A stretch of DNA of 64,000 nt from Bdellovibrionales bacterium (GTDB lineage Bacteria > Bdellovibrionota > Bdellovibrionia > Bdellovibrionales > JAUICD01), in the NCBI GenBank assembly GCA_965203275.1, contig OZ241865.1:2080001-2144000 (forward strand), written 5' to 3'. The position numbers were made by a program, and so were the translations under genes. Positions 1 through 61,110 of this stretch are shown here, one piece after another (within the stretch, counting starts at the first letter, position 1; each line of letters starts with the position of its first letter). The notes below the pieces were generated by a model. It had not been told where the DNA came from, ran no database searches, and saw nothing but the letters and a program-made list of their open reading frames with translations.

Positions 1-440
1 AAAAATCCGTTTATTTTTAGTAGGAAGAATCCTCTTGTCTCTTTACACGATGTTAAGGAAACAAGATGTTTACTTCACGTTGGCAAAATGGTCATCGTCT
101 CAAAAGCCTGTTCACTTTGAGTAAGGAGGATCCCTTCGTTTTTTTACACAATGTTAAGGAAAAAATTCCTTCTTACACCCTGGGCGATGACCACGATGGC
201 TTTCGCCGTTGGTAAAATGGTCATCGCCTAGAAAGCCTGACCACTTTTAGTAATGAGGATCCATTTCTCATTTAACACCATGTTAAGGAAACAAAATGCC
301 TTTTCTGCCTGATGCCCTCAAAAGCTTGTTCAATTTTAGGAAGGAGGATGTCCTCATTTCTTAACACAATGTTAAGGAAACAAGACATTCGTTTCACTTT
401 TGCCAGTTTGCCGGGTTGCCAGATCCCGGATCCTGGATAA
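1..440 (+). repeat. Cluster of structured modular intergenic repeats (partial at window start)
   Basis: Modules ggcgatgacc..gctttcgc..ggtcatcgcc, gaccacttttagt, ggatcc and ttaacaccatgttaaggaaa recur; the cluster ends in gatcccg heptamers. Confidence 0.9.
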
Positions 441-454
441 AATCAAATTTAACT

Positions 455-760
455 TTAAGTATTTTTACACAGTTTGTATAAAAAAGCACCTAATTTGTCA
501 GCTTGTTTTGCTAATTCCATACAGCCAACAAATTCTAAATCTAATATTGCTTGAACTTCTCTTAGAGAGCCAAGACTAATATAATAAAATTTCCTACGAT
601 CTTTTGCTGTAGGTTTAGCAGACCCTTCAGCTAAGTTAAGCACAATACTTGAAACAGCCCTTCGAAATTGACTTCTATGAGGCTCTTTCAGATGTAATTT
701 TTTAGAATTACGATAAAATTGAGTAGCTAATTGGTAAGTTTTGAATTTTTTCATCGTCAT
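455..760 (-). CDS. Four-helix-bundle protein (23S rRNA IVP / bAvd-like family), copy 1
   Basis: Family motif QFRRAVSSIVLNLAEG...DRRKFYYISLGSLREVQ; near-identical to 31804..32109. Confidence 0.9.
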   Translation of the reverse strand: MTMKKFKTYQLATQFYRNSKKLHLKEPHRSQFRRAVSSIVLNLAEGSAKPTAKDRRKFYYISLGSLREVQAILDLEFVGCMELAKQADKLGAFLYKLCKNT

Positions 761-844
761 AAAAATTTCATCCTTTCTAAAAACCCGCCAGGGCTTGGGA
801 GGAAATTTTTTAGATGAAAAAATTCATTACAATCAATGCTTTAG

Positions 845-970
845 GGCCTGACTGCCGGCTTGCCAGATCCCGGATCCCGGGATGAACACGATGTTAAGGA
901 AAAAGGTCATTTCTAGGATCTGATGCCGGGTTATCCGATCCCGGATCCCAGATGAACACAATGTTGAGGG
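845..970 (+). repeat. GATCCC(G/A) heptamer module plus partial structured repeat
   Basis: gccagatcccggatcccggg and atgttaaggaaa modules. Confidence 0.8.
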
Positions 971-1011
971 GTTGGTTCAGTAAAAGTGAATGAGGTTTTA
1001 ATACCAAAAGG

Positions 1012-1434
1012 TTATTTCTTTTTAGGTTGTGGAGTTGGCCTATGTAGATGCCCTTTTAAATTCTGCATATTTTCTATAGGAGATCGGTATTCATATCTTT
1101 CTCGTTCGATCGAGTCCATAAAGTCTCCTACATAAATCACTTGATGATCTTTAAATTGTATTTCTTTACGTATCCATCTTCCATTGCGATAAAAGCCATA
1201 TATCCAATATTCAACAAGATCCTTGTATTGAGATTGAACGGGTGAGCCAACCCTTGCCAGCACATCTGCTTTTGTCATACCCACGTCTATTCTGTTGAAT
1301 CGACTTAAAGATGTACAAGATAAAAGCATCAACGATAATAAACAAATCATCAAGGCCATAGCCCTAGCTATATTACATAACTTAAGTATTTTTACAAAAT
1401 TTATATAAATGAGCTGTAAGCTTTTATTGTGCAT
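1012..1434 (-). CDS. SmpA/BamE-like small lipoprotein
   Basis: Lipobox LLSC followed by IDVGMTKADVLARVGSP...EYWIY; true start may be downstream. Confidence 0.65.
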   Translation of the reverse strand: MHNKSLQLIYINFVKILKLCNIARAMALMICLLSLMLLSCTSLSRFNRIDVGMTKADVLARVGSPVQSQYKDLVEYWIYGFYRNGRWIRKEIQFKDHQVIYVGDFMDSIERERYEYRSPIENMQNLKGHLHRPTPQPKKK

Positions 1435-59038: not shown

Positions 59039-59091
59039 AAATCAATCCCCCTTTGATTTGAATGAAATAAAACCTCACCTACTTTAAAACA

Positions 59092-59108
59092 TGCAAGGGG
59101 GATGCCAA
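59092..59108 (-). promoter_or_regulatory. Sigma-54 (-24/-12) promoter
   Basis: Minus strand TTGGCATCCCCCTTGCA, GG-N10-GC spacing. Confidence 0.7.
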
Positions 59109-59198
59109 GTTTTAAGGCATTTATTTGCTTTTTAGTGTCTACTTTTTATCAAACTGTCAATATTTTAGATAATTAATATGCTCAAATATAAAATCATT

Positions 59199-60194
59199 TT
59201 ATCTATATTTTAAACAGAGTTGCTCAATGGTTTTTGGACCAATTTGAGTGGTACCAAAAATTTCTTGATTAAAATTAACTCTAGCCTCTTGACGCGTTTG
59301 ATTACTTCCATATCCTTTTATATATACGTACATATTTGCTTCATTTCTATAAATTTGATTATATTGTTGATCATATTCTTGTCCTTTTATCTGATTATTA
59401 CAATATCTTGATAAAAGACGACGATAATTACCTCTTATTTGATGGTCATATCTCACCTCTGCCAGGTCCATAATGGATCTGCCAGATCTATTCCTTACAA
59501 GACTATCCACACTTTTACCTTCATATATAAACGTCGCTATAGCCCGGGCAACTCCTTCTGTTAGTGGGGTTAAGGAATCTTGTAGGGCAATATGTAAAGG
59601 GCGATCACCTCTACCGCAGTCATAATTGACATCCAAACCTGGCGTACGCATCACAGCCTGCATACGGCTTGTGATTTGAGGTTGACCCTGCCGATAAAAC
59701 GACTGCCACCAACGAGGGTCACACAGGTTATTATGAGCTTCGGCCCTTGCTTCAAATCCACGTCTGACTTCATTGCACACACTGCGATCGATCCGGCCTC
59801 TATCACATTGGTCGGTGATCACTTGATTGGGTGTTTTTTGAGTGTAAGGGTCTTGATGATCTAAATTAGCACCTGCCCGTATCAATGCCAGGACCGCATC
59901 GGCTCTGCCATAATCTAATGCAAGCAGTAGAGGGGACGACCCACTTGAGCAAGATTGATTGACATTAGAGCCACCTCTGATAGCATTTGATATATCGTTG
60001 CTACTGGCAGAACTATACCAATCAGAATCACAAAGGTTAGTTGTTTGAGCTAAGGCATCCACCGAGCTTAAAAGCAAAGCCACTAAAAACACCCCTACTA
60101 TCTTCATACTGAAACCTGTTACCTTTGTACTTAAACTTACCATTTTTCCTAAACTTGCTACTTTCTTACTAATTTTAATGCTGAATTTTCTCAT
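59199..60194 (-). CDS. Secreted protein with ankyrin-like repeats
   Basis: SPLLLALDYGRADAVLALIRAGANLD; GDRPLHIAL. Confidence 0.75.
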   Translation of the reverse strand: MRKFSIKISKKVASLGKMVSLSTKVTGFSMKIVGVFLVALLLSSVDALAQTTNLCDSDWYSSASSNDISNAIRGGSNVNQSCSSGSSPLLLALDYGRADAVLALIRAGANLDHQDPYTQKTPNQVITDQCDRGRIDRSVCNEVRRGFEARAEAHNNLCDPRWWQSFYRQGQPQITSRMQAVMRTPGLDVNYDCGRGDRPLHIALQDSLTPLTEGVARAIATFIYEGKSVDSLVRNRSGRSIMDLAEVRYDHQIRGNYRRLLSRYCNNQIKGQEYDQQYNQIYRNEANMYVYIKGYGSNQTRQEARVNFNQEIFGTTQIGPKTIEQLCLKYR

Positions 60195-60239
60195 AATATC
60201 TCTCCTTCTTTAAGTTTTTTAATTGTTAAACAATTCCTT

Positions 60240-61110
60240 TTGATGCCGGCTCCCGGATTGCCAGATCCCGGATCCCGGAATAAATCCTTCCAATGCCTTA
60301 TTATGCACAGATTACAAAAGATTGCAAACAAAAACAACCCACATTGTAAAGGTTATAGGGTACTTTGTAATTTTTACATAGTCTATTTCCCTAAAATTGA
60401 ACTGGCCTCTAGCCACTTTTGGGCAGTTAGCCCGACGGCTGTCGCCGTCGATCAAAGGCTAAGCTGTTTCACTAAAAGTGGTCTAGCCTCTGGCTACTTT
60501 CTGGCAATGACCGCAATGGCTTTCGCCATTGGCAAAATGGTCATCGCCTAGAAAGCCTGACCACTTTTAGTAGGAAGGATCTCCTTGCTTTTTAACACCA
60601 TGTTAAGGAAAAAGTTCCTTTATTGCATTGAGCTTGCTTTCCAAAAACATTTTAGAGGTATATCTTGTTTCCCTAACATGGTGTAGAGGAATAAAAGGAT
60701 CCTCCTCTACTCAAAATGAACAAGCTTTTGAGGTAGCCAGCCTTTTACGACGGCGGTAGCCGTCGGGCTGATTGCCCATTACCATTCGCATCCAGATTTT
60801 TTATTTGTAAGCACAGAATTTCAAAGCCAAATAAGATGAAGGGTTGTAAAAGCTAATGATATAAATGGGAAAGAGTCTGGTCTCAGGGCAATGATTTTGA
60901 AATTTAAGAAATAAATTGAAGATCCAGCTCAAAAGTGGCCAGAGGCCAGTTCATTTTGAGTGAAAAAAATTGAGGACTTCGGAAGGCTCACACTGCCCTA
61001 TCCTCAAATAAAAATAAAATGGAAAAGCAGAATCGAAGGGTGGTGGGTGAGGTTAGGGAAGTTCCTTCTGACCAGATCCCAGATCCCGGATCCCAGATCA
61101 ACACAATGTT
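60240..61110. repeat. Mixed-orientation structured repeats, heptamers and the dispersed ~130-bp segment
   Basis: Same modules. Confidence 0.85.

What the first reader, a model, noticed from the sequence alone, without database searches (positions are those of the whole stretch)
1..61110. Abundant multi-stem repeat family whose stems covary between copies (structure conserved, sequence diverse)
Seen: a ~150-bp unit (reference ~30463-30612) occurs in about 15 intergenic clusters, roughly 8 kb by eye, and never inside an intact CDS. Every stem keeps pairing while its sequence changes. Outer stem: actaaaagtggtc/gaccacttttagt, actcaaagtgaac/gttcactttgagt, actaaaagtaaac/gtttacttttagt, actaaaaataaac/gtttatttttagt, cctaaaattgaac/gttcaattttagg, actcaaaatgagc/gctcattttgagt. 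Side hairpin with a constant TCT loop: tagcc/ggcta, tggcc/ggcca, aacc/ggtt, catgcc/ggcatg, cacacc/ggtgtg, tgacc/ggtca. Inner stem with a bulged T: ggcgatgacc, ggacaatgacc, ggcagttagcc, ggcattgctct. Apical hairpin: caaaggc, cgatggc, cgacggc, cgacgac, gacagc; its loop reads c-GNNA-g on the other strand (GAAA, GACA, GTAA, GATA, GGTA, GTGA). A ggatcc palindrome and a ttaaca-NNN-tgttaa hairpin follow. Inference: the fold, not the sequence, is selected, implying a protein or process that recognises an ssDNA or RNA structure. Non-GNRA loops hint at ssDNA, as in REP/REPIN or attC biology, but the branched architecture matches no element I recognise.
Basis: partly seen in the sequence, partly recalled or inferred. 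Interest (0 to 1): 0.88.

Follow-up and report, generated by a model that had tools for sequence, protein, structure and literature searches.

The report
Self-nesting three-armed hairpin mobile repeat
A 165-base non-coding unit that keeps its three-armed folded shape while its sequence varies fills about 6% of this uncultured Bdellovibrio-like bacterium's genome and spreads, mostly into older copies of itself, by a route for which no known moving enzyme was found.

Summary
The repeat is real: about 1,200-1,400 whole or partial copies, 6.5% of genome G000, almost all intergenic, 13 clusters in this window. Four stems covary, also within subfamilies; the distal ttaaca hairpin does not. Empty-versus-filled sites show a defined unit of about 165-180 nt that inserts without a fixed duplication, usually replaces 2-30 target bases, has ragged ends, and lands in another copy in 311 of 515 cases, at a few hairpin hot spots. 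No Rfam family. No Y1/RAYT, IS110 or reverse transcriptase in G000. The family is confined to one genus: its hits in a second genus lie on contaminant contigs. A four-helix-bundle cassette travels with it here but occurs without it in relatives. Best reading: a selfish non-autonomous element copied in as a folded single strand at nicked hairpins and reshuffled by gene conversion; DNA or RNA and the enzyme remain open. It works like a REPIN but fails REPIN and MITE membership. The scan already reported this family from other windows of the same genome.

The parts
30463..30624 (-). Reference unit (folded strand is -; coordinates on +), inserted into the side hairpin of an older copy
30467..30567 (-). 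Three-way-junction core: outer stem 30467-30479/30555-30567, side hairpin 30480-30492, inner stem 30493-30508/30535-30551 with one bulged base at 30545, apical hairpin 30510-30527
30568..30604 (-). Hypervariable 28-nt segment and the near-invariant ATGTTAAGG motif (CCTTAACAT on the folded strand), the top insertion hot spot, shared with the heptamer repeats
30440..30462 (-). First part of the interrupted host copy; its outer arm pairs with 30675-30687
30626..30725 (-). Remainder of the interrupted host copy; about 15 host bases are missing at the insertion
30733..31032 (-). Second nested pair of the same cluster
1..393 (.). Repeat cluster (triple nest, begins before the window)
455..760 (-). 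Four-helix-bundle gene (TIGR02436) between heptamer runs, repeat cluster directly downstream
2064..2709 (.). Repeat cluster
7243..7863 (.). Repeat cluster
9143..9491 (.). Repeat cluster
15667..16542 (.). Repeat cluster with a tandem duplication
19505..20170 (.). Repeat cluster
20652..20864 (.). Repeat cluster just upstream of a pilin-type gene
31804..32106 (+). Second four-helix-bundle gene, 96% identical to a sister copy, with repeat cluster downstream
32171..32492 (.). Repeat cluster
38470..39673 (.). Repeat cluster
53407..53770 (.). Repeat cluster
56670..57315 (.). Repeat cluster
60383..60967 (.). Repeat cluster

Best explanation
A selfish, non-autonomous mobile element of about 165-180 nt. 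Shown: the fold of one strand is under selection; the unit inserts; ends fall in narrow but ragged zones; no fixed duplication or dinucleotide; 0-30 target bases are usually lost; hairpins, above all its own, are the hot spots; modules are shuffled between copies. Inferred: the folded strand (RNA or ssDNA, about even odds) is held by a structure-reading protein at a nicked or opened hairpin; the target's free 3' end primes copying from the element's A-rich 3' end through 1-4 matching bases, and the far end joins by loose microhomology, replacing the bases between. Ectopic gene conversion then mixes stem modules, and only copies with intact pairing amplify. The enzyme is a host function, a protein without a Pfam label, or one since lost.
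For: Covariation within strata of the other modules: outer stem 594 of 688 against permutation mean 367 (max 395); upper inner stem 524 against 264; the same on 395 distinct cores. Strand: single mismatches are G.T on the folded strand in 47 distinct arm pairs against 20 on the other (p=0.001), while private mutations are symmetric (G>A 25, C>T 25). Insertion: interrupted hosts keep matching outer arms in 49 of 121 nests, about 17 expected; 147 of 682 intact copies have an empty allele elsewhere; among 30 filtered sites head joints lie 3-11 nt and tail joints 14-31 nt from fixed landmarks, with 2-29 nt lost and no common dinucleotide; fixed break points in four-helix-bundle cassettes; rpsQ-rplN filled in a sister organism, empty in G000. 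Hot spots: 311 of 515 heads lie in another copy, 95 at CCTTAACAT in opposite orientation, 92 at the side hairpin. Conversion: tandem units with identical flanks carry different stem alleles; 196 module haplotypes among 688 copies.
Against: No enzyme found: no RVT_1, Y1 (14), IS110 (27) in G000, which is 90% complete by markers. The priming step is inferred from junctions only. Empty sites are visible only in multi-copy targets, so the hairpin preference is biased by ascertainment, and many identical junctions may descend from one event. 13 of 122 sites gave overlaps of 1-18 nt instead of losses and were dropped. The tail-resembles-target test (p=0.0005) is inflated by host-allele differences, and the same test at the head was negative (p=0.86). 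The exact junction at CCTTAACAT (81 identical) would also fit a precise nickase. No excision or strain polymorphism was seen (contigs only).
Confidence: 0.5

Rival explanations
1. REPIN-like element cut and rejoined as ssDNA by an HUH (Y1/RAYT- or rolling-circle-type) enzyme that is divergent, unassembled or recently lost.
For: Single-strand fold with a bulge, no duplication, nested mosaics; compensatory changes are common in REPIN hairpins (PMC3116915, passages); GNYA loops 200 of 665; one exact hot-spot junction.
Against: No PF01797 in G000; the single one in G001 is an ordinary IS200-type gene with its own ends and no repeat within its 3.4-kb locus; no CT or other fixed dinucleotide at joints, whereas TnpA-REP cuts at CT (PMC8266576, passages); target bases are lost. 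The IS91 search rang in no control genome, so it is inconclusive.
Confidence: 0.2
2. No dedicated enzyme: nuclease-resistant folded ssDNA fragments anneal at forks by microhomology (SPDIR-like) and spread by RecA-driven gene conversion.
For: Ragged microhomology-type joints and target replacement match the description of SPDIR (10.1101/2023.11.22.568220, part 1 of 3 read); partial and permuted copies exist; several unrelated repeats share the same clusters.
Against: SPDIR is very rare in wild-type cells and G000 keeps RecA, DprA and MutS; it does not explain fixed helix lengths, the bulge, the loop rule or the narrow end zones.
Confidence: 0.15
3. A host-beneficial structured RNA or DNA site (mRNA stabiliser, nucleoid or protein-binding site) expanded by selection.
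For: Strong fold (z about -9 as DNA, -8.4 as RNA); conserved across the species of the genus.
Against: Little orientation bias to transcription (360 sense against 308 antisense copies between co-directional genes); copies break each other and genes; positions differ between species; absent from close relatives.
Confidence: 0.1

Closest known systems
REP / BIME / REPIN with RAYT (TnpA-REP); PMC3116915 and PMC8266576, passages read
   Same: High-copy intergenic hairpin repeats, clusters and mosaics, compensatory changes, one strand recognised, bulge, no fixed duplication
   Different: Three-way junction of 100 nt plus a 60-nt tail, no RAYT in the genome, no 5' GTAG, no CT joints, target bases replaced, strong self-targeting
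MITEs (Correia, RUP, ERIC type; review PMC3184786, abstract and outline only; details recalled)
   Same: Non-coding, 100-200 nt, hundreds of copies, stable fold
   Different: Inverted repeat closes only the core, not the unit's ends; no constant target duplication; no cognate transposase with these ends
SPDIR microindels (10.1101/2023.11.22.568220, part 1 of 3 read)
   Same: Single-strand donor, loose microhomology, target replacement
   Different: SPDIR is rare and sequence-independent; here one defined structured unit reaches more than 1000 copies
Target-primed retroelements and RT-mediated end joining (G2L4 RT, 10.1101/2022.03.14.484287, search listing only; SINE-type junctions recalled)
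   Same: A-rich 3' end joined by short matches, variable far end with target loss
   Different: No reverse transcriptase in G000; loops not restricted to GNRA; stems nearly free of wobble pairs
Heptamer-armed four-helix-bundle cassettes (TIGR02436; 23S rRNA intervening-sequence type; link recalled and from earlier scan notes)
   Same: Share clusters and the CCTTAACAT motif here; also move without a known transposase
   Different: Occur in relatives that lack this repeat

Membership tests
REP/REPIN | Associated RAYT (Y1 HUH) gene flanked by the repeats | tested here: not met
   0 PF01797 matches in G000; G001's one match has no repeat in its locus
REP/REPIN | Conserved GTAG tetramer 5' of the palindrome | tested here: not met
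REP/REPIN | Joints at CT (or CA) cleavage dinucleotides | tested here: not met
   13 different dinucleotides at the head joint of 30 sites, CT in 2
REP/REPIN | Intergenic hairpin with compensatory changes | tested here: met
MITE | Terminal inverted repeats at both ends of the mobile unit | tested here: not met
   About 60 nt of the unit lie outside the outer stem
MITE | Constant target-site duplication | tested here: not met
   109 of 122 sites show 0-50 nt lost, 13 show overlaps of varying length
IS200/IS605 non-autonomous derivative | Fixed 4-5 nt target, no target loss, TnpA in the genome | tested here: not met
   Only a loose TYTG bias before the head; losses common; no TnpA; the TnpB-type hit is the zinc ribbon of a Cas12 gene of over 1300 aa
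IS91 / rolling-circle element | Y2 transposase; one precise end, one variable end | tested here: inconclusive
   PF04986 found nowhere, controls included; head narrower than tail but not precise
Integron attC | Integron integrase and co-oriented one-gene cassettes | tested here: not met
   Clusters hold no ORFs and 173 of 432 mix strands (antisense self-matches inflate this); two tyrosine recombinase matches only, not examined further
Retroelement | Reverse transcriptase in the genome | tested here: not met
   0 PF00078 in G000; G001 has group II intron and retron-like genes absent from G000
Retroelement | Discrete transcript of the unit | not testable with these tools
   No RNA holder listed
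Rfam families | Score at or above gathering threshold | tested here: not met
   0 in the window; best E 0.11, far below threshold

The most novel reading that the evidence does not exclude
A transposase-free class of bacterial mobile element: a folded single strand recognised by shape and written into nicked hairpins by target-primed copying, using a host or so far unlabelled protein, possibly the same pathway that moves heptamer-armed four-helix-bundle cassettes (shared CCTTAACAT end; 28 of 32 cassette 3' ends are followed by it).
Probability: 0.2. Interest if true: 0.88.

Novelty: new variant of a known kind. Interest (0 to 1): 0.62.

Why it matters
How small bacterial repeats spread is largely unsolved. 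This family offers about 700 intact copies, dozens of compensating alleles and over 100 filled/empty site pairs in one genome, enough to read off the structural rules and the junction chemistry. Its joints fit neither RAYT nor DDE transposases, and no candidate enzyme is visible, so it may expose a new insertion route or a protein that reads a three-way junction. It also occupies 6% of a host-associated genome with flattened GC skew.

Tried and rejected
Enzyme hunts that led nowhere: Y1, RT (20, 43), IS110, Rpn/YhgA (16 matches in G000 but also 16 in repeat-free G003), tyrosine recombinases, IS91 (92, inconclusive), GIY-YIG (one long gene in each of 5 genomes, 93), DUF559, HNH (95, 97: small genes not flanked by the repeat or also in repeat-free relatives), TnpB (96), motif screens, and reading by eye the 238 soluble protein clusters of G000 without a match in G004 or in the 60% of G003 fetched; these were not scanned against Pfam. 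Host-repair loss: RecA, MutS, DprA present in 5 of 5 genomes. G004 as a second genus: rejected, all 13 hits are on contigs C1, C4, C11, which duplicate genes held on its large contigs (S10 ribosomal operon) and are closer to G000. Replication-strand bias: 398 of 792, p=0.92, but the skew is too flat to place the origin. Repeats as rearrangement breakpoints: 9 of 211 gaps with a repeat are syntenic against 215 of 617 without, but within gap-size classes the effect is weak and mixed. Circular intermediate: 4 permuted candidates, arms unmatched in the two isolated ones. No RNA holder listed. No promoter-like site at the reference cluster. Adjacency of four-helix-bundle genes to the repeat in G001 stays open beyond 3 loci seen. 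Literature: searches listed no paper on this family; subscription journals are mostly not covered and no supplements were read.

Full report
What is there. The window lies in G000, one contig of 2.57 Mb, 35% G+C, a member of Bdellovibrionales by the only named record that holds the repeat; near-identical DNA occurs in public runs, one labelled sponge metagenome. A profile built from 602 near-full copies finds 1448 hits over 6.5% of the genome, 1237 after removing weak hits and antisense self-matches, in about 430 clusters spread evenly. They avoid intact genes. Rfam has nothing.

Anatomy. There are 11, 8, 5 and 15 perfectly paired alleles with three or more copies for the four stems, combined in 196 haplotypes, and further alleles in G001.

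Is the covariation more than descent? Yes. Permuting arms only among copies that share the other modules leaves a large excess for every stem, on all 688 copies and on 395 distinct cores. Normalised mutual information between the two outer arms (0.83) exceeds that of either arm with its neighbours (0.55-0.75). The distal hairpin is the exception (0 of 6 pairs). The folded strand is the opposite one: tolerated mismatches are G.T there (47 against 20 distinct arm pairs), mutation itself is symmetric, apical loops read GNRA 370, GNYA 200, GNNNA 61 of 665, and that strand folds better in 78 of 80 cores as RNA and 69 of 80 as DNA. That GNNA loops are stable in DNA while RNA prefers GNRA is recalled, not tested.

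Does it move? Interrupted hosts keep matching outer arms across the insert (49 of 121, about 17 expected). For 147 of 682 intact copies an empty allele exists elsewhere in the genome (122 site keys): 109 show 0-50 bases lost, 13 show overlaps. In the 30 sites kept after filtering, the head joins within 3-11 nt of CACT, the tail within 14-31 nt of TTAAGG, 2-29 nt are lost, and no dinucleotide recurs. Clean non-self examples are the four-helix-bundle cassette (about 30 nt lost from its leader hairpin; 3-6 nt lost near codon 67), another repeat's hairpin (11-14 nt lost) and a multi-copy gene with zero loss. 311 of 515 heads sit directly in another copy, mainly at CCTTAACAT in opposite orientation (95) and at the side hairpin (92). 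Tandem units with identical flanks but different stem alleles show gene conversion. Caveats: empty sites are visible only in repeated targets, and identical junctions may share one origin.

Distribution. The covariance model matches 3 of 151 genomes of the order and 1 of 151 of the phylum. After fetching G004 whole, all 13 hits fall on three small contigs that duplicate genes of its large contigs, including the S10 ribosomal operon, with median identity to G000 of 65-75% against 43-55% for the rest. They come from a third organism close to G000, so the family is confined to one genus among those searched. The first 960 kb of G003 have none.

Partner search. No Y1, RT or IS110 gene in G000; Rpn, integrase, GIY-YIG, DUF559, HNH and TnpB do not track the family. 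The four-helix-bundle gene (TIGR02436) has 32 matches in G000 and 35 in G001, none in G002 and G003; 15 of 15 called copies have the repeat within 300 bp downstream against 18% of all genes, and 28 of 32 3' ends are followed by the shared CCTTAACAT motif. But these copies are 93-100% identical, so they are not independent; the orientation differs in G001; and G004 proper, G021 and G025 carry 12-24 matches without the repeat. It may be needed; it is not enough.

Mechanism. Ragged joints at both ends, short matches at the head, loss of target bases and absence of a fixed cut site fit copying of a single-stranded template primed by a broken target better than cut-and-join chemistry (0.5, RNA and ssDNA about even). 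An unseen HUH enzyme (0.2), enzyme-free SPDIR-like capture (0.15) and a host-beneficial structure (0.1) remain.

Comparison. It works like a REPIN (PMC3116915, passages) but fails the RAYT, GTAG and CT tests (PMC8266576, passages), and fails MITE, IS200/IS605, attC and retroelement tests. I read part 1 of 3 of 10.1101/2023.11.22.568220, passages of PMC4679880 on unexplained heptamer repeats, the abstract and outline of PMC3184786, and only listings for the G2L4 papers. Searches listed no description of this family. Five earlier notes of this scan describe the same family in other windows of G000; new here are the within-subfamily test, the strand assignment with its mutation control, the empty-site junction set and the contamination result. 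Verdict: real, a new structural variant of non-autonomous intergenic mobile repeats with an unexplained insertion route; interest 0.62.

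Noticed in passing
G004 contigs C1, C4, C11 (L046, L049, L056-L058): Contaminant contigs from an organism close to G000; they duplicate the S10 ribosomal operon and carry all of G004's repeat copies.
   Followed up: yes
window 400-454, 845-960, 1990-2045 and genome-wide: Heptamer runs (CCGGGAT/CTGGGAT type; 387 runs in G000) flank four-helix-bundle genes and share the CCTTAACAT end with the main repeat; other heptamers flank the gene in other Bdellovibrionales (L034, L037-L039).
   Followed up: partly
G000 genome-wide, e.g. C1:677250-677480: At least two further repeat families of 60-75 copies (GAGGACTTCGGAAG / GGGTGGGGTTAGGGA hairpin family; TAGATTCTGCGTAA) share the clusters and are targets of the main repeat.
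   Followed up: partly
window 2706-4730 (-): 674-aa protein with an apparent signal peptide and about eight 46-residue helix-turn-helix-like repeats; a family of more than ten paralogues in G000, almost no match in relatives.
   Followed up: partly
window 7964-8998 (+) and 16554-17465 (-): Two Rpn/YhgA-type nuclease genes beside repeat clusters; 16 matches in G000 but also 16 in repeat-free G003.
   Followed up: yes
G000 whole: GC skew is nearly flat (within 0.03 per 100 kb) against up to 0.085 in G003 and G004, pointing to heavy rearrangement.
   Followed up: partly
L079:2-355, L078:17595-18740, L067:172-1134, L117:3865-4374, L062:12014-13561: Genes of G004 without a match in G000 that look by eye like topoisomerase VI subunits, YhaM, RecX and an RNase Y-type protein (names recalled, not tested).
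   Followed up: no
G000:C1:1030554, 1745319, 1884929: Three near-identical stand-alone 105-aa HNH genes with conserved flanks, unrelated to the repeat.
   Followed up: partly
G000:C1:467150-467400 and 2552230-2552900: A tandem repeat of about 150 bp; two units carry a circularly permuted copy of the main repeat with the same joints but different stem alleles.
   Followed up: partly
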